DNA of 64,000 nucleotides from a virus (taxonomy: Duplodnaviria; Caudoviricetes), in IMG/VR virus record IMGVR_UViG_3300037780_000034, positions 64,001 to 128,000 of that record; one strand, 5' to 3'. A program made the translations under genes and the position numbers. The notes under the pieces are model-generated. The model did not search any database, was not told the origin of the DNA, and saw only the letters and a program-made list of their open reading frames with translations. Shown here in pieces: positions 621 through 20,232 of the stretch; the stretch's first letter is position 1; each line of letters opens with the position of its first letter.

Positions 621-832
621 AATCTATACTTTTAAGCGGCGGGATAAATGTTTTTTTGAATAACGAAGAATGGGATTTGTTAGAAGCAAACAAAGATAAA
701 CCAATATATAGAAAAAAATTAAAAGAACGAGAAGCATTGATAGCAGAAAGATTACATAAACGTGGTATTTTGAAAATAAAAAGAGAAAATAACGAGATAT
801 ATTATAAAATAAACAAAAATGGATTTATATAA
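617..832 (+). CDS. hypothetical protein
   Basis: 71-aa ORF coupled to its neighbours. Confidence 0.55.
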   Translation: MKSILLSGGINVFLNNEEWDLLEANKDKPIYRKKLKEREALIAERLHKRGILKIKRENNEIYYKINKNGFI

Positions 833-1328
833 TATGAAATTAAGTATGTCTGAACTTAGCAAGAATTTTGAAAAAGTAGTAAATGATACTATTAATGATT
901 TAGTGTCAGAAAGTTTTTACAATTATGATGCAAAGCTTGCGTTGTCATCAGGCAAAATATCAGATAATGTTATAAAGGTAGAAAATTTTATTATAAGATT
1001 AAAAAAAGAAGACATACATGGAACTGATAAAATATTTTACGATATATATGACGAAAAACATAATAAGCTAATTGCCAAAAATATATCTCTTTTTATAACT
1101 GTTTTATATATTATAAAAAACTATAAAAATAACACATTTTGCACTGAATTACAAAATATTATTAATTTAGATAAATCTTACAAAATAAAATTTTGTGATG
1201 TTGCATTTCAAAAAAGAATGATTAAAGAAACGTTAAACAAAGAAAAACGTGAAATATATAACGCAAAGTATAATGGCAACATAGATGCACTTGGTCGTAT
1301 AAAATCACAAATAATAAAAATAACATAA
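819..1328 (+). CDS. hypothetical protein
   Basis: 169-aa ORF in a coupled operon. Confidence 0.55.
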   Translation: MDLYNMKLSMSELSKNFEKVVNDTINDLVSESFYNYDAKLALSSGKISDNVIKVENFIIRLKKEDIHGTDKIFYDIYDEKHNKLIAKNISLFITVLYIIKNYKNNTFCTELQNIINLDKSYKIKFCDVAFQKRMIKETLNKEKREIYNAKYNGNIDALGRIKSQIIKIT

Positions 1329-1348
1329 ATAAAAGTATAAAACTTATT

Positions 1349-2107
1349 ATGGAGATAAAATCAATGTTTTTAAAAGAATTTGATACAAACAAAGAAAAAT
1401 TTAACAAAATACAAACATACCTAAAAGAAAATTTTAAGTTTGAAATTGCAACTGAAAAGCTTAATGAAATTAAAGCTGACAGACTAATAGAACGTTCAGA
1501 GAATAGATTAAAAACAGTTAATCAAAAAACAAATCCAAAAGAATACACCAAACTAAAGTTGGTTTCAGAAGGATTAAAATTATGGAAACTAACTGAACAA
1601 GAAGAAGATTCTGGGGATATGGATGAAGCAAGAATAATTTTATCTGCCGAAGAAATAACTACAAAATTACAAGATATGGTTGAAAAAATTGCAGAACTTC
1701 AAGTTCAAAAACTAATTCCAATTGTTGATAAGATGAAAGAAGAATTAGGACCAAATGAAGCCGCACGTTTTAATCAAATAGCAGATTCTTCATTAGCAGA
1801 ATTATTAAACATAGCTAAGTCAACAAAAGATAAAATTTCTACTGCAATAGTTCAAGTTTCAAGTGGAACTACTTCAATGGATCAAGATATGGGAATGCAA
1901 CAGTCACAAGGATTAGATTCTCTTGATGATATGGGCGATGATGGATTTGATGGTGATGATGCAGTTTCTGGTGATATAGGTCCAGAAGGTAGAAAAATGA
2001 AAGGTGAAAGCATAGATTTTGAAGATGCACTTTTATTACTAAAAGAAGCAACAAAAGATGGCAAAATTTCAAGAAAAGATTTTAATAAAATAATTGGCAA
2101 GAAATAA
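1349..2107 (+). CDS. hypothetical helical/acidic protein
   Basis: 252-aa ORF with an acidic low-complexity C-terminal linker. Confidence 0.6.
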   Translation: MEIKSMFLKEFDTNKEKFNKIQTYLKENFKFEIATEKLNEIKADRLIERSENRLKTVNQKTNPKEYTKLKLVSEGLKLWKLTEQEEDSGDMDEARIILSAEEITTKLQDMVEKIAELQVQKLIPIVDKMKEELGPNEAARFNQIADSSLAELLNIAKSTKDKISTAIVQVSSGTTSMDQDMGMQQSQGLDSLDDMGDDGFDGDDAVSGDIGPEGRKMKGESIDFEDALLLLKEATKDGKISRKDFNKIIGKK

Positions 2108-2846: not shown

Positions 2847-3533
2847 ATGATAAAAATTAACAACAAATACAATTATACTCAATTTTCAAGAGAAGATTCG
2901 GACAATGGTAGATTATACCTTGTTAACGAAACAAAGTTGCCAAGTGTAACGACTATACTAAGTAAGACAAAACCTGCTGAATCTGTTAAAAAGTTAAATG
3001 AATGGAAACAAAGAGTTGGAATACAAGAAGCAAAAAAGATTACAAAAGAAGCATCTGACGTAGGAACTCTGGTTCATAATATTTTAGAAGCTTGGATATT
3101 AAACAAAGAATTTCCTATAGGAAATAATTTAATACATAAACAAGCAAAAAATATGGCAGACATTATAAAAAAAAATATTGAAAACGATATTACTGAAGTA
3201 TGGGGAAGTGAAGTTAGCCTATATTATCCAGATTTATATGCAGGAACTTCAGATTTAATAGGATTATGGAAAAATGTTCCTACGATAATGGACTTCAAAC
3301 AAACAAATAAACCCAAACAACGTGAATGGATTGGAGATTATTTTTTGCAACTTGCTGCATACGCAGAAGCACATAATGTATTATATGATACTGACATAAA
3401 TCAAGGAGTGGTATTTATGTGTTCCAGAGAAGGAGAATTTCAAAAATTTGAAGTATCTGGTGCTGAATTTGAATATTGGAAAAATGAGTGGGCAAATAGA
3501 ATTAATAAATATTACAATATAAGTGAGATATAA
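2847..3533 (+). CDS. PD-(D/E)XK exonuclease (phage/MGME1-like)
   Basis: LPSVTTIL, GTLVH and YAGTSDLIG...IMDFKQT...QLAAY motifs. Confidence 0.85.
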   Translation: MIKINNKYNYTQFSREDSDNGRLYLVNETKLPSVTTILSKTKPAESVKKLNEWKQRVGIQEAKKITKEASDVGTLVHNILEAWILNKEFPIGNNLIHKQAKNMADIIKKNIENDITEVWGSEVSLYYPDLYAGTSDLIGLWKNVPTIMDFKQTNKPKQREWIGDYFLQLAAYAEAHNVLYDTDINQGVVFMCSREGEFQKFEVSGAEFEYWKNEWANRINKYYNISEI

Positions 3534-4233
3534 TATGACTGATACTTTAATAGCAAAAGTTCAATTAAGAAATGGAAACATTGCAGACTTACCGATTTTA
3601 TCAGAAGCTGAACTTGCATATGCAACTGACCAAACCCGACTATTTGTAGGAAATTTAGAATATACAATCGGAACAGGTAATGGTGTATTAACTACATTTA
3701 ATATACCATCTACAAGCAATGTTCCTATTCCAGCTACAAATACTGAATTTATTAAGTTTTATGTTAATGGTGTAGAAAGAAGTGACGTTGTAGTAGGTGG
3801 AACAACTGTGACATTTTCAGTTGCACCAGCAGATACTACCACTATAACTATGAAATATAATTCAGAAATAAAATTATTAAATTCTTCAATAAATCCAAAT
3901 TCATTGCTTTTAAGTGCTTCTGTTACTGTAGACTTTCAAGATACTGGATTTGCGATAGATGCAAATATATATGACACGGTTTTTATAAATTATAGTATAA
4001 AAATGCTTGATGGGTCTGATAACATAACTGGATATAGAATAGGAACTATTAAAGCAATAGTTGATCTAGAAGGGGATGACTATATTCTTGATGACTCCTA
4101 CACATCTTTTAACAATGATAACTCTGTTTTATTTGACGGTAGAATACAAGATGGAATATTTTACTTAACATATAAAAATAGTTCTTCATCATCTGCAACA
4201 CTTAAATATAAATTTGAAACATGGAAGATGTAA
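3523..4233 (+). CDS. virion structural protein (tail/baseplate-like)
   Basis: N-terminal LPILSEAELAYATDQTRLFVG motif typical of tail-fibre/baseplate N-termini; beta-rich T/S/V composition. Confidence 0.55.
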   Translation: MRYNMTDTLIAKVQLRNGNIADLPILSEAELAYATDQTRLFVGNLEYTIGTGNGVLTTFNIPSTSNVPIPATNTEFIKFYVNGVERSDVVVGGTTVTFSVAPADTTTITMKYNSEIKLLNSSINPNSLLLSASVTVDFQDTGFAIDANIYDTVFINYSIKMLDGSDNITGYRIGTIKAIVDLEGDDYILDDSYTSFNNDNSVLFDGRIQDGIFYLTYKNSSSSSATLKYKFETWKM

Positions 4234-17012: not shown

Positions 17013-17468
17013 ATGAAAAAGGGCGAATCACTTTCAACTGCAATTCATATTGCAACTAATGCACATCACGGGCAGTTTGATAAAGGCGGAAAGCCTTATA
17101 TTCTTCATTGTTTCCGTGTAATGAACTATCTTGACACCGATGATGAAGAATTGCAATGTATTGCACTTTTGCACGATGTTGCAGAAGATACAAAAACAAC
17201 TTTTCAAGATATGCTTGATAGTGGTATGTCTAAACGTATTGTTGATGCAGTAAAATTGTTAACAAAGATGCCCGGTCAAACATACGAAGAATATAAAACC
17301 GGAGTTCTTTCAAATATTGATGCTATGCTTGTAAAAAAAGCAGATTTGACTGATAATTCCGATATACGGCGACTAAAAGGAATTACAGAGCGTGATATTG
17401 AAAGAACTGCAAAATATCATCGGTTCTATCTTGAGATTGAATCCAAAATGAGAGAGAAAAATGTATAA
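17013..17468 (+). CDS. RelA/SpoT-type HD-domain hydrolase (small alarmone hydrolase/Mesh1-like)
   Basis: AHHGQFDKGGKPYILH, LLHDVAEDT, VKKADLTDN; SD AGGAG before ATG 17013. Confidence 0.8.
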   Translation: MKKGESLSTAIHIATNAHHGQFDKGGKPYILHCFRVMNYLDTDDEELQCIALLHDVAEDTKTTFQDMLDSGMSKRIVDAVKLLTKMPGQTYEEYKTGVLSNIDAMLVKKADLTDNSDIRRLKGITERDIERTAKYHRFYLEIESKMREKNV

Positions 17469-18633
17469 AAATATTAAAAAGTTTGATCCCATTTATAAAC
17501 GTGATTCCAGTGGGTCAACACGAATGTGGTCTATGCAAATCGGTTATACCGATACATCTGCATCACATCGTGTTGTATCCGGTGTATTAAATGGTAAGAT
17601 GGTAACAAGTGAATGGAAAGCGTGTAATCCAAAAAATATCGGAAAATCAAACGAGACAACTGCTTTGCAACAAGCAGAATCAGAAGTATCTTCATTGTAT
17701 ACAAAAAAGTTAGAGACCGGATATTTCAAAAATGTCAAAGAAATAGATGAGTTTGCAAAAACAAAACCTATGCTGGCATCACAACACGAAAATCATACTT
17801 ATGATTTTAAAAATAATATGTATTATTCTCAGCCAAAGATTGATGGTATCAGGTGCATTGCACGAAAAGATGGTCTATGGACAAGAACAGGTAAAGAAAT
17901 TGTTTCTATCCCTCACATTGGTAAAGAACTTAAAAATTTCTTTGAAAAATATCCGGATGCAATAATTGACGGAGAATTATACAACCACGATCTTAAAGAC
18001 GATTTTAATAAAATCACTTCTCTTGTTCGTAAAACAAAACCAAAACAATATGATTATGTAGAAACACAAAAACTTGTTCAATATCATATTTATGATATGG
18101 TCAATATGCCAGAAAAAGAAAAAACATTTTATGGAAAAAATCCATTTTTTAGTGATAGAATTTCGTGGCTAAAAGATGAATTGCTAAATTCATTTTCTGT
18201 AAACGATACCTTTATTAAATTTGTTCCTACACTTGCAGTGTATGATATGGAACAACTTGATAAATTATATGGTGAATATCTTGAATATGGATACGAAGGC
18301 CAAATGATACGCATAAACGCAGTTTATCAAGAAGATAAACGTTCTAAATATCTTATAAAACGAAAAGAGTTTTTAAGTGAAGAATTTCCAGTTTTAGAAA
18401 TGACAGAAGGACAAGGAAATTGGGCTGGACATATAAAGCAGCTTGTTCTACAATTGCCAGATGAAAGGAAGTTTGGAGCAGGAATTCGCGGGACACAAGA
18501 AGTTCTTAGCAATTTATACAAAAATGGAAAAAAACCGGATTGGGCAACAGTAAGATACTTTACGCCTACACCAGATGGTATACCTCGTTTCCCAGTAGTG
18601 GTTGATTGGGGATATGGAACTCGTAACGATTGA
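17461..18633 (+). CDS. lig: ATP-dependent DNA ligase
   Basis: QPKIDGIR (motif I), IDGELY, YHIYD, EGQMIR, KRK; OB-fold C-terminus. Confidence 0.9.
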   Translation: MYKNIKKFDPIYKRDSSGSTRMWSMQIGYTDTSASHRVVSGVLNGKMVTSEWKACNPKNIGKSNETTALQQAESEVSSLYTKKLETGYFKNVKEIDEFAKTKPMLASQHENHTYDFKNNMYYSQPKIDGIRCIARKDGLWTRTGKEIVSIPHIGKELKNFFEKYPDAIIDGELYNHDLKDDFNKITSLVRKTKPKQYDYVETQKLVQYHIYDMVNMPEKEKTFYGKNPFFSDRISWLKDELLNSFSVNDTFIKFVPTLAVYDMEQLDKLYGEYLEYGYEGQMIRINAVYQEDKRSKYLIKRKEFLSEEFPVLEMTEGQGNWAGHIKQLVLQLPDERKFGAGIRGTQEVLSNLYKNGKKPDWATVRYFTPTPDGIPRFPVVVDWGYGTRND

Positions 18634-18656: not shown

Positions 18657-19040
18657 ATGAAATTATTAAACTTTTTTAAAAATATTACTAAATCTCTTTT
18701 TTCAAAATATGCAGTTTACACATATAATACAAGAGGAACAACATTTTATGTTGGTTGTTATAAATATAGAGGAAAATGGTATGGAATTGACAGAAAAATT
18801 CCCGATATTGAAGAAGAACTATTAACAAATAACAATATAAATTCTGTTACGAATAAAGTATATTCAGATAATTTTTTATGGAGAATTGACTTTAATATTA
18901 CTCCAGCCACCGGAGATAGAATACATGAATATTGCACAGTTAACAACAAAGAAGATGCCAAGTTTGCTATAAAAAAGCATAAAGATATACAAAACTTTTT
19001 AAAGAGTAAAAATGTTAAGCCAACAGTAGAATACTGTTGA
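18657..19040 (+). CDS. hypothetical protein
   Basis: 127-aa ORF with SD. Confidence 0.5.
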   Translation: MKLLNFFKNITKSLFSKYAVYTYNTRGTTFYVGCYKYRGKWYGIDRKIPDIEEELLTNNNINSVTNKVYSDNFLWRIDFNITPATGDRIHEYCTVNNKEDAKFAIKKHKDIQNFLKSKNVKPTVEYC

Positions 19041-19065
19041 CACTGTATACTGATTATGTCATAGT
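19037..19065 (+). promoter_or_regulatory. sigma70-type promoter
   Basis: TTGACA-17nt-CATAGT; GATTC at 19067-19071. Confidence 0.6.
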
Positions 19066-19091: not shown

Positions 19092-19682
19092 ATGAACTAT
19101 TGTTTTCCACAAATTCGCACAATTGATGATGTCCTTCCTTATATAAAAGGACGTGAAGAATTTGTTGTTGCTGAACGTGAGTTTGGCACAGTGATAAACT
19201 ATATGGTATCAATGCCAGACACGTTTGATATGAAGGGACCAGATGATTTAGGCGGGGCTATTCGTCGTGAATGTCGTGGAATTAAGTTCTATCCTGACGG
19301 AACTATTGCTTCTCGTGTTTTTCATAAATTTTTCAATATTGGAGAACGTGAAGAAACACAAATTCATAAAATTGATTTAACGTTACAACACACACTTATG
19401 GACAAACGTGATGGAAGTATGATACACCCGATGATGGTAAATGGGTATATTCGCTGGATGACAAAAATGGGTTTATCAGATGTAGCATTGCAAGCAGAAA
19501 AATATATCAATACCACAAACAACTATAATCCTTTTGCTGCTTGGTGTATTGAAAGCGGATTAACTCCAATTTTTGAATATACTGGTCCAAATAACCGAAT
19601 TGTTGTTTCTTATGAAAAAGAAGAATTAGTTCTACTTGCAGTTCGTGACAACATTACTGGAGAATATCTTGATGTTACTTGA
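19092..19682 (+). CDS. T4 Rnl1-type RNA ligase, N-terminal part
   Basis: RECRGIKF, FHKFFNIGE, KRDGSMI (motif I), FEYTGPNNRIV (III), LAVRDNITGEY (IIIa). Confidence 0.85.
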   Translation: MNYCFPQIRTIDDVLPYIKGREEFVVAEREFGTVINYMVSMPDTFDMKGPDDLGGAIRRECRGIKFYPDGTIASRVFHKFFNIGEREETQIHKIDLTLQHTLMDKRDGSMIHPMMVNGYIRWMTKMGLSDVALQAEKYINTTNNYNPFAAWCIESGLTPIFEYTGPNNRIVVSYEKEELVLLAVRDNITGEYLDVT

Positions 19683-20232
19683 TAAAATAAAAGAATATAA
19701 TATTCCTGTAGTAGAAACTCATCAAGCGTTTGATGACATTCATTCTCTTATAGAACATACAAAACATCTTAAAAATGCAGAAGGATTTATCATTTCGTTT
19801 CCTAATGGTCATAAACTTAAGATCAAAGCTGACGAATATGTAAGAATTCATAAAACAAAAGATATGATCCAGTTTGATCGTAACATAGTTGACTTGATCA
19901 TCAATGAAAATATTGATGATGTTATTCCTATGTTGCCAGAAACTGATGTAAATCGTATTCGTGATTTTGAAAAACGATTCTGGAAAGCATTTCTTGATAC
20001 TGAGAAAAAGTTGTATGGATTATATCGTGAAGCCGGAACATCGTATGATTATGATAAAAAACGTATTGCGACTGAATACATTCCGAAATATATAAAAGAC
20101 AAAACATATAGTTCATTTATATTCAGTCAAATAGATGGAAAAGATTTGCGCAATATGTTGCTAAAACATATTGAAAAAAACATAACAACTAACGTTAAAT
20201 GGGACCAATGCGCAAAATGGTTAGGAATGTAA
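19672..20232 (+). CDS. T4 Rnl1-type RNA ligase, C-terminal part
   Basis: AEGFII (motif IV), KLKIKADEY (V) plus helical C-domain; GGAGA 8 nt before ATG 19672; +1 frame relative to the N-part. Confidence 0.8.
   Translation: MLLDKIKEYNIPVVETHQAFDDIHSLIEHTKHLKNAEGFIISFPNGHKLKIKADEYVRIHKTKDMIQFDRNIVDLIINENIDDVIPMLPETDVNRIRDFEKRFWKAFLDTEKKLYGLYREAGTSYDYDKKRIATEYIPKYIKDKTYSSFIFSQIDGKDLRNMLLKHIEKNITTNVKWDQCAKWLGM

What the first reader, a model, noticed from the sequence alone, without database searches (positions are those of the whole stretch)
19092..20232. RNA ligase split into two overlapping ORFs between motifs IIIa and IV
Seen: motifs I-IIIa end at ...GEYLDVT-TGA (19682). Motifs IV, V and the C-domain are in the +1 frame, starting at ATG 19672, 8 nt after a GGAGA SD. 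The junction contains a CTTGAT..CTTGAT microrepeat. Inference: a natural two-subunit Rnl1, a programmed +1 shift, or an assembly indel. The well-placed SD and intact motifs in both halves favour a functional split, and the CCA enzyme in the same window is also split.
Basis: partly seen in the sequence, partly recalled or inferred. Interest (0 to 1): 0.6.

Follow-up and report, generated by a model that had tools for sequence, protein, structure and literature searches.

The report
Naturally split phage RNA ligase 1
This uncultured jumbo phage encodes its T4-type RNA ligase as two separately translated proteins cut inside the catalytic domain. Many related phages share the cut, and in them selfish homing-endonuclease genes sit at that point, so it is a new example of a known "genes-in-pieces" phenomenon and not a sequencing error or a frameshift.

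Summary
ORF1 (19092-19682, 196 aa) carries Rnl1 motifs I-IIIa. ORF2 (ATG 19672-20232, 186 aa) carries motifs IV and V and the C-terminal domain. ORF2 is in the +1 frame, overlaps ORF1 by 11 nt, and has a GGAGA 8 nt upstream.

The split is neither an assembly indel nor a programmed frameshift. More than 120 protein clusters (55-98% identity) stop at the same point. Of 160 related loci, 111 are intact and 35 are split, with 23 distinct junctions.

In the split loci the halves lie in all three relative frames. They are separated by -14 to +1145 nt. The larger gaps hold unrelated HNH or GIY-YIG homing endonuclease genes on the opposite strand.

Every split copy keeps the catalytic residues. Both halves are under purifying selection (dN/dS about 0.05-0.28). 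The cut maps to a surface loop between T4 Rnl1 residues about 194 and 200, inside the nucleotidyltransferase domain.

N- and C-half phylogenies disagree (AU p = 1e-5), so the junction is a recombination boundary. The window carries the endonuclease-free allele. The closest known cases are Aeh1 nrdA/mobE and the split gene 43 of T4-like phages. Ligase activity of the two-piece enzyme is inferred, not shown. The same scan earlier found a similar split in this genome's CCA enzyme.

The parts
19037..19065 (+). Sigma-70-like promoter candidate upstream of the N-half (TTGACA-17-CATAGT with TG). No promoter-like or terminator-like site lies between the halves.
   Evidence: This is a consensus match only; the count does not exceed the shuffles, so it is weak evidence.
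19092..19682 (+). Rnl1 N-half, 196 aa. It carries RECRG (T4 R54), motif I KRDGS (T4 K99, D101, G102), and motifs III/IIIa FEY...TGEY. The last three residues (DVT) are read out of frame from the first codons of the C-half.
   Evidence: (aligned to 2C5U residues 52-192).
19659..19663 (+). Shine-Dalgarno-like GGAGA for the C-half. It is embedded in the conserved Gly-Glu codons of TGEY and lies 8 nt before ATG 19672.
   Evidence: L088 has the same arrangement (GGGGAG).
19672..19682 (+). 11-nt start/stop overlap ATGTTACTTGA, consistent with translational coupling. This is the endonuclease-free ('empty') junction.
   Evidence: L088 has the homologous 14-nt overlap, with ATG 4 nt after the Tyr codon as in the window.
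19672..20232 (+). Rnl1 C-half, 186 aa. It carries a helix, motif IV (AEGFII; T4 E227, G228), motif V (KLKIK; T4 K240, K242) and the helical C-terminal domain.
   Evidence: phrog_562 200-369; 2C5U residues 213-367.
19668..19683 (+). CTTGAT-N4-CTTGAT microrepeat. Both copies encode Leu-Asp, one in each half. It is not conserved in relatives and is probably incidental.
   Evidence: L088 and L002 lack it at the junction. P0001 reads LNVT at this position.

Best explanation
This is a natural 'genes-in-pieces' T4-type RNA ligase 1. The gene is cut in a surface loop inside the nucleotidyltransferase domain, between motif IIIa and motif IV. The two pieces are co-transcribed and translated separately. 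The C-half initiates at ATG 19672 by coupling to termination of the N-half at TGA 19680-19682, and it uses the GGAGA formed by the conserved Gly-Glu codons as its ribosome-binding site. The two polypeptides are inferred to reassemble non-covalently. The N-half would supply the lysine nucleophile (motif I) and motifs III/IIIa. The C-half would supply the motif IV and V strands and the helical C-terminal domain. The cut site is a landing site for free-standing homing endonuclease genes. In related phages unrelated HNH or GIY-YIG genes sit there on the opposite strand, and each cassette brings a stop codon for the N-half and an SD plus ATG for the C-half. The window carries the endonuclease-free allele of the same junction. 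Because the two-piece enzyme works, there is no selection to restore a single reading frame. Shown here: the architecture, its conservation, the endonuclease association, purifying selection and recombination at the junction. Inferred: separate translation in vivo, heterodimer assembly and ligase activity.
For: (1): 237 hits in the short-length search. The best 120 (55-98% identity) are nearly all 190-237 aa and end 2-8 residues after the conserved GEY (alignment). P0001 (98% identity, from a different contig) has the same stop. (2): of 160 related loci, 111 are intact (372-417 aa) and 35 are split. There are 23 distinct junctions, with relative frames 0, +1 and +2 and gaps of -14, -11, +1, +2, 51, 293, 380 and 736-1145 nt. 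(3): the large gaps each hold one opposite-strand ORF of 221-333 aa matching phrog_655/phrog_12434 (HNH) or phrog_314/PF01541/NUMOD3 (GIY-YIG). Closely related ligases carry unrelated endonucleases (L084 vs L007, L096 vs L097). (4) Every C-half has its own ATG preceded by a purine-rich SD-like stretch. (5): RECRG, KxDGS and FE[YW] in the N-halves, and EGF and KxK in the C-halves, are kept in the split copies examined (two C-half motif matches, in L013 and L131, were checked by eye or not resolved). (6): Nei-Gojobori dN/dS between split copies is 0.05-0.12 for the N-half and 0.08-0.28 for the C-half (for example L096/L097: 0.116 and 0.140). (7): the cut maps between T4 Rnl1 residues about 194 and 200. 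In the AlphaFold model of the intact relative L018 (pLDDT 93.7; best PDB match 2C5U, E = 1e-19) it falls in the coil at 193-200, between a short strand and helix 201-209, with a local pLDDT dip. (8): there is one N-half and one C-half, and no intact paralogue, in the 318-kb record. (9): N-half and C-half trees disagree (AU p = 1e-5). Nucleotide identity peaks over the endonuclease cassette and its flanks, as expected for homing with co-conversion.
Against: There is no biochemical, proteomic or transcript evidence that the halves associate or ligate RNA. Unlike the Aeh1 NrdA case, no extra interaction peptides are visible, so assembly would rely only on the native intradomain interface. A low level of +1 frameshifting at ACT-TGA in this particular allele cannot be excluded from sequence alone. 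The order of events is not resolved: endonuclease insertion may have created the split, or an earlier split may have been colonised by endonucleases later. The window genome is a metagenome assembly and reads could not be inspected.
Confidence: 0.78

Rival explanations
1. Programmed +1 ribosomal frameshift at the ORF1 stop (ACT TGA T) yields a single full-length Rnl1 in this phage.
For: ORF2 is in the +1 frame and overlaps ORF1. An SD-like GGAGA lies upstream. L088 has the same overlap in the same +1 relation.
Against: Relatives with the same cut have the halves in frames 0, +1 and +2, and up to 1145 nt apart with an opposite-strand gene between them. Separate translation is therefore sufficient and general. 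The site is not slippery: tRNA-Thr on ACU would have to re-pair on CUU, and L088 has CAT TGA. The GGAGA lies 16 nt before the stop, not the roughly 3 nt seen in prfB. ORF2 has a well-placed ATG of its own.
Confidence: 0.05
2. Assembly or sequencing indel: the real gene is one ORF.
For: The window is a metagenome-assembled contig, and a single-base change would merge the frames.
Against: The same truncation point occurs in more than 120 protein clusters from JGI, ENA, Logan and NCBI assemblies, down to 55% identity. A 98%-identical copy on another contig also has it (P0001). So do 23 distinct junctions. The junction does not lie in a homopolymer run.
Confidence: 0.01
3. Decaying pseudogene: the ligase was inactivated by an endonuclease insertion and the pieces are drifting.
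For: Homing endonucleases can disrupt genes. T4 Rnl1 is dispensable in hosts that lack an anticodon nuclease (established knowledge).
Against: dN/dS is far below 1 in both halves at synonymous divergences of 0.5-1.4. All catalytic motifs are retained in 23 junction types. Both ORFs are full length in every locus where the contig allows a check.
Confidence: 0.04
4. The halves no longer work together. After the split they took on separate functions, for example one keeping only the tail-fibre attachment role known for T4 gp63.
For: T4 gp63 has two genetically separable activities (established knowledge). The N- and C-halves have discordant evolutionary histories.
Against: Motif I in the N-half and motifs IV/V in the C-half are all conserved, which makes sense only if one composite active site is maintained. 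The halves are always adjacent and on the same strand.
Confidence: 0.1

Closest known systems
Aeromonas phage Aeh1 nrdA-a / mobE / nrdA-b 'genes-in-pieces' ribonucleotide reductase (Friedrich et al. 2007 PNAS, cited in PMC2988022; Crona et al. 2011, PMC3045599)
   Same: A gene that is contiguous in relatives is cut inside a functionally critical region by a free-standing homing endonuclease gene. The two ORFs are translated separately and, in Aeh1, reassemble into an active enzyme.
   Different: The enzyme here is an RNA ligase, with the cut inside its nucleotidyltransferase core. The endonucleases lie on the opposite strand. Several unrelated endonucleases use the same site. The window allele has lost, or never had, the endonuclease. 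No cassette-derived interaction peptides are evident.
Split DNA polymerase gene 43 of T4-like Aeromonas phages: phage 25 with a seg endonuclease, phage 44RR with an endonuclease-free spacer (review PMC2988022)
   Same: One split site exists both as an endonuclease-occupied allele and as an endonuclease-free allele in related phages. The order of split and invasion is also ambiguous there.
   Different: The enzyme differs. Here the endonuclease-free allele has no spacer at all: the ORFs overlap by 11 nt.
T4 RNA ligase 1 (gp63; PDB 2C5U, 5TT6, 9DO4)
   Same: The fold and all catalytic motifs are the same. The N-half aligns to T4 residues 52-192 and the C-half to 213-367. The model of an intact relative matches 2C5U best.
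   Different: T4 Rnl1 and all cultured-phage homologues seen in INPHARED are single polypeptides. This one is two.
'Fractured genes' with split inteins and a free-standing endonuclease (Dassa et al. 2009, PMC2677866)
   Same: Two gene halves have a homing endonuclease gene between them in environmental phage-like DNA.
   Different: There are no intein halves. The lengths 196 + 186 aa add up to an intact Rnl1 (372-417 aa). The N-half ends 2-8 residues after the last conserved residue, so no protein splicing is possible.

Membership tests
Rnl1 (T4 RNA ligase 1 family) | Motif I KxDG with the lysine nucleophile, plus the upstream Arg (T4 R54) | tested here: met
   RECRG and KRDGS in the N-half align to T4 R54 and K99-D101-G102. 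PF09511 scores 84.5 bits against a cut-off of 28.3.
Rnl1 (T4 RNA ligase 1 family) | Motifs III/IIIa, IV (EG) and V (KxK) | tested here: met
   FEY...TGEY in the N-half aligns to T4 153-192. AEGFII and KLKIK in the C-half align to T4 E227-G228 and K240/K242.
Rnl1 (T4 RNA ligase 1 family) | Rnl1-specific helical C-terminal domain | tested here: met
   The C-half matches phrog_562 positions 200-369 (E = 2e-27) and 2C5U residues 213-367 (E = 9e-7). Pfam PF20819 scores only 17.2 bits, below its cut-off of 27.
Rnl1 (T4 RNA ligase 1 family) | Single polypeptide carrying the whole nucleotidyltransferase domain | tested here: not met
   There are two ORFs, and the split is conserved. This is the variant feature.
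Rnl1 (T4 RNA ligase 1 family) | ATP-dependent RNA end-joining activity | not testable with these tools
   Needs co-expression of the halves and adenylylation and ligation assays.
Homing-endonuclease 'genes-in-pieces' | The gene is contiguous in related genomes | tested here: met
   111 of 160 related loci are intact, at 372-417 aa. All cultured-phage hits examined are intact.
Homing-endonuclease 'genes-in-pieces' | A free-standing homing endonuclease gene lies between the halves | tested here: inconclusive
   It is absent in the window (11-nt overlap). It is present at the same site in relatives, as HNH (phrog_655/12434) and GIY-YIG (phrog_314) genes. The window is therefore read as the endonuclease-free allele.
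Homing-endonuclease 'genes-in-pieces' | Each half has its own translation signals and both are maintained by selection | tested here: met
   ATG preceded by an SD-like stretch before every C-half. dN/dS is 0.05-0.28. Motifs are kept.
Homing-endonuclease 'genes-in-pieces' | The halves reassemble into an active enzyme | not testable with these tools
   Needs biochemistry.
Split-intein 'fractured gene' | Intein N- and C-fragments flank the break | tested here: not met
   The N-half ends 2-8 residues after GEY and the C-half starts at the conserved helix. The summed length equals that of intact homologues.
Group I intron-interrupted phage gene | A self-splicing intron RNA lies between the exons | tested here: not met
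   No Rfam intron match in 10 split loci at E <= 1. The endonucleases lie on the opposite strand. In the window the ORFs overlap.
Programmed +1 frameshift (prfB type) | Conserved frame relation with a slippery codon at the stop and an SD about 3 nt upstream | tested here: not met
   Relative frames 0, +1 and +2 occur among homologous junctions. ACT TGA and CAT TGA are not slippery. The SD lies 16 nt before the stop.

The most novel reading that the evidence does not exclude
The cut turns Rnl1 into a two-module enzyme whose junction is a shared homing-endonuclease landing pad. Endonuclease-driven recombination there swaps whole C-halves (motifs IV/V plus the C-terminal domain, which in T4 confers tRNA-repair specificity) between phages. 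This would let the phages diversify RNA-repair specificity quickly against host anticodon nucleases. A composite active site built from two polypeptides without any added docking peptides would also be the first natural split inside the nucleotidyltransferase core of a covalent nucleotidyltransferase (ligase or capping enzyme superfamily).
Probability: 0.3. Interest if true: 0.65.

Novelty: new member of a known kind. Interest (0 to 1): 0.45.

Why it matters
The finding adds RNA ligase 1 to the short list of essential-type phage enzymes (NrdA, DNA polymerase, topoisomerase) that stay useful after a homing endonuclease cuts their gene in two. Here the cut passes through the catalytic nucleotidyltransferase fold itself. 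It gives a natural, evolution-tested split point for Rnl1, an enzyme widely used in RNA-seq library chemistry, that could guide engineered split ligases. Occupied and empty alleles, at least three unrelated endonuclease lineages and discordant N/C histories make this locus a clear natural example of endonucleases marking recombination boundaries in phage genomes (compare PMC10448857). For annotation, the two ORFs should be labelled as two subunits of one RNA ligase, not as a pseudogene or a frameshift.

Tried and rejected
- Megablast of the locus against INPHARED phages found no near-identical record.
- A single-protein pattern scan of IMG/VR found nothing. The alignment-based scan worked.
The DNA of the closest protein hits (P0001 98%, P0002 77%, P0003 72%) could therefore not be read. 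Their junction type is inferred only from the protein tails: LNVT and LNVTG imply the overlapping type.
- Rfam at E <= 1 on ten split loci found no group I or II intron, so the intron reading was rejected.
- The split-intein reading was rejected on lengths and alignment.
- The AU test on the full 95-row C-half set with the mixture model did not finish in four runs. A reduced 44-row LG+G4 test finished.
- A search of the phage record for PF08645 (PNK3P, the T4 Pnkp phosphatase domain) found nothing. No Pnkp partner was identified, but the record is only about 85% complete and other kinase/phosphatase families were not searched.
- Phrase searches for a split, fragmented or heterodimeric RNA ligase in 8.4 million papers found nothing. 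This is not proof of absence.
- The CTTGAT microrepeat was considered as a duplication footprint. Removing 10 nt would fuse the frames, but relatives with the same junction lack the repeat, so it is treated as incidental.

Full report
**1. The observation**

The window holds two overlapping ORFs on the + strand.
- ORF1 is 19092-19682 (196 aa) and ends ...TGEYLDVT then TGA.
- ORF2 starts at ATG 19672 and ends at 20232 (186 aa). It is in the +1 frame and overlaps ORF1 by 11 nt (ATGTTACTTGA).
- GGAGA (19659-19663) lies 8 nt before that ATG.
- CTTGAT occurs at 19668-19673 and again at 19678-19683.

ORF1 matches Pfam RNA_lig_T4_1 positions 1-152 of 227 (84.5 bits) and phrog_562 positions 52-194. 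ORF2 matches phrog_562 positions 200-369 of 377. The two ORFs are thus consecutive parts of one T4-type RNA ligase 1.

Against the T4 Rnl1 crystal-structure sequence (2C5U), ORF1 residues 59-194 align to T4 52-192 and ORF2 residues 22-175 align to T4 213-367.
- RECRG (T4 R54), KRDGS (K99, D101, G102) and FEY (E159) are in ORF1.
- AEGF (E227, G228) and KIK (K240, K242) are in ORF2.

The assignment of these T4 residues as catalytic rests on my knowledge of the published mutational work on T4 Rnl1.

The window is part of a 317,722-bp IMG/VR virus record (about 85% complete by CheckV). That record holds one N-half, one C-half and no intact paralogue.

**2. The split is real and old**

A search restricted to proteins of 107-343 aa gave 237 hits. 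The best 120 are 55-98% identical to ORF1. Nearly all are 190-237 aa long and end 2-8 residues after the conserved GEY. P0001 is 98% identical, comes from another contig and has the same stop.

I fetched 160 related loci from IMG/VR and public metagenomes and classified each by tblastn of both halves.
- 111 are intact (372-417 aa) and 35 are split. The other 14 are cut by contig ends.
- The split loci give 23 distinct junctions.
- With one exception (L131), all are cut at the same place.
- The C-half lies in relative frame 0, +1 or +2.
- The distance from N-half stop to C-half start is -14 or -11 nt (L088, window), +1 or +2 (L022, L135, L112), 51, 293 or 380 (no ORF), or 736-1145 nt.

These facts exclude an assembly indel. 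They also exclude frameshifting as the way these genes are expressed.

**3. What sits in the gap**

Each gap of 736 nt or more holds one ORF of 221-333 aa on the opposite strand.
- One group (L002/L082, L003, L084-L092, L006, L096, L097, L071) matches phrog_655 'homing endonuclease' and phrog_12434 'HNH endonuclease'. It has weak Pfam HNH and HTH_23 hits.
- A second group (L007, L095, L131) matches phrog_314 and Pfam GIY-YIG.
- L070 is a GIY-YIG-like protein with NUMOD3.

No group I intron was found by Rfam at E <= 1 in ten split loci. There is also no room for intein halves.

Every C-half has its own ATG preceded by a purine-rich SD-like stretch (GGAG, AGAGG, AGGA). In occupied alleles the last few codons and the stop of the N-half lie in the cassette, often antisense to the 3' end of the endonuclease gene. 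These tails vary in sequence and length.

**4. The window allele**

In the window and in L088 there is no cassette. The C-half ATG begins 4 nt after the Tyr codon of GEY. The N-half then simply runs out of frame over the first C-half codons until a TGA (window: CTT GAT GTT ACT TGA over ATG TTA CTT GAT).

The SD for the C-half is formed by the conserved Gly-Glu codons (GGAGA in the window, GGGGAG in L088). Compared with its sister L002/L082, the window differs by presence or absence of a block lying exactly between 'TAT CTx' and the ATG.

I read this as the endonuclease-free ('empty') allele of a homing site. Protein tails of P0001, P0002, P0010, P0032 and P0043 (..[ND]V..) suggest more such alleles.

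No promoter-like or terminator-like site separates the halves in the window. A promoter-like site lies at 19037-19065 (weak evidence).

**5. Evidence that both halves are kept by selection**

The split copies examined retain RECRG, KxDGS and FE[YW] in the N-half and EGF and KxK in the C-half (the automated C-half motif matches for L013 and L131 were imperfect).

Nei-Gojobori dN/dS between split copies is 0.05-0.12 for N-halves and 0.08-0.28 for C-halves, at dS of 0.5-1.4. For example, L096/L097 give 0.116 and 0.140. Some dS values are near saturation, so these figures are rough, but all are far below 1.

**6. Where the cut falls in the fold**

An AlphaFold2 model of the intact relative L018 was built from a 48-row alignment. 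It has mean pLDDT 93.7 and pTM 0.83. Its best PDB match is T4 Rnl1 2C5U (Foldseek E = 1e-19).

In the model the residues equivalent to the N-half tail and the C-half start bracket the coil 193-200. This coil lies between a two-residue strand (191-192) and helix 201-209. The 10-residue pLDDT block there drops to 88, between blocks of 98 and 95.

The motif IV and V strands (239-244, 247-252) and the helical domain (254-383) belong to the C-half. The cut is therefore in a loop, but inside the nucleotidyltransferase domain and not at the domain boundary. The active site must be composite across the two polypeptides. Non-covalent reassembly is an inference. No added docking peptides of the kind described for Aeh1 NrdA (PMC3045599) are visible.

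**7. History**

In the N-half tree (quick IQ-TREE) the window lies in a starred (96) clade of 13 loci, all split. A larger clade (support 91) holds 21 split loci plus the intact L018.
- L070 and L071 are split at the same site in the sister group.
- L007 and L095 group with intact genes.
- L131 is nested in an intact clade (98). It is cut about 20 residues further downstream by a GIY-YIG gene, so it is an independent event.
- The tree needs 6 changes of state, and starred branches force at least 3.

The C-half tree is discordant. Holding together the ten C-halves whose N-halves form the starred clade costs 335 log-likelihood units (AU p = 1e-5; reduced 44-row set, LG+G4).

Pairwise profiles show the same discordance.
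- L085 vs L089 are 85-91% identical across the endonuclease and its flanks but 47-64% in the distal C-half.
- L085 vs L088 are 98-99% identical in the 3' part of the N-half. The cassette is missing in L088, and the C-halves are 60-76% identical.
- L084 vs L007 carry unrelated endonucleases next to a C-half 5' region that is 90-95% identical.

This is the pattern expected for homing with co-conversion and for endonuclease turnover at one site. It fits the published view that nuclease genes mark boundaries of exchange between phages (PMC10448857).

Two points remain unresolved:
- whether the first split was made by an endonuclease insertion or by a mutation that endonucleases colonised later;
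- whether L018 is ancestral or a re-fusion.

**8. Comparison with what is known**

The closest precedents are Aeh1 nrdA-a/mobE/nrdA-b, T4 genes 39/60 with mobA, and gene 43 of Aeromonas phages. In the gene 43 case, phage 25 has a seg endonuclease and phage 44RR has an endonuclease-free spacer (PMC2988022; PMC3045599).

In INPHARED, all cultured-phage homologues I checked are single ORFs. For example, in Synechococcus phages B3 and B23 the two halves hit contiguously in one frame. Phrase searches of the paper library for a split, fragmented or heterodimeric RNA ligase found nothing.

Earlier notes of this scan on the same genome describe a CCA-adding enzyme split by a lost endonuclease cassette and a split-intein DNA polymerase. 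I confirmed the CCA split by Pfam. The RNA ligase is thus one of several endonuclease-fragmented genes in this phage.

**9. Verdict**

This is a new member (Rnl1) of a known kind (endonuclease-associated genes-in-pieces). Three features stand out:
- the cut lies inside the catalytic fold;
- occupied and empty alleles coexist;
- the halves exchange as modules between phages.

Activity of the two-piece enzyme remains to be shown.

Noticed in passing
window 57103-57450 and 57490-58542 (+): The CCA-adding enzyme is also in two ORFs, cut inside the PolyA_pol head domain. The first ORF matches profile positions 1-36. The second matches 86-126 plus the RNA-binding and HD domains.
   Followed up: partly
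L131:2501-3157 (N-half, 218 aa), GIY-YIG ORF 3117-3845 (-), C-half starting about 736 nt after the N-half stop: This is an independent split of Rnl1 about 20 residues downstream of the main site. It lies in a clade whose other members are all intact (support 98 in both trees) and has a phrog_314 GIY-YIG endonuclease in the gap.
   Followed up: partly
L018:2501-3655: An intact 385-aa Rnl1 nests inside the otherwise split clade. It has a unique linker (HEETQDYY) exactly at the split point. It is either the unsplit ancestor type or a secondary re-fusion after cassette loss.
   Followed up: partly
L083:204-794, then 766-1452 (-) and 1558-1950 (+): After this N-half come a GIY-YIG endonuclease gene and a further 130-aa ORF. 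No C-half is found within 1.5 kb before the contig ends. The insert may be larger, with two genes, or the C-half may have been lost.
   Followed up: no
L012:1737-2033 (293-nt spacer), L101 (51-nt spacer), L013:3107-3490 (380-nt spacer): These are ORF-less spacers between the halves. L101 looks like L012 with about 242 nt deleted, and the 22 nt before the ATG are identical. They may be decayed endonuclease cassettes at different stages of erosion.
   Followed up: no
window 17461-18633 (+) and 18657-19040 (+): An intact ATP-dependent DNA ligase (PF01068 + PF14743; phrog_114) lies about 460 nt upstream of the RNA ligase. Between them is a 127-aa ORF with no Pfam or PHROG match.
   Followed up: no
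whole phage record (G000): No match to PF08645 (the PNK3P phosphatase domain of T4 Pnkp) in the 318-kb record. The usual Rnl1 partner for tRNA repair was not identified. Other kinase and phosphatase families were not searched, and the record is about 85% complete.
   Followed up: partly
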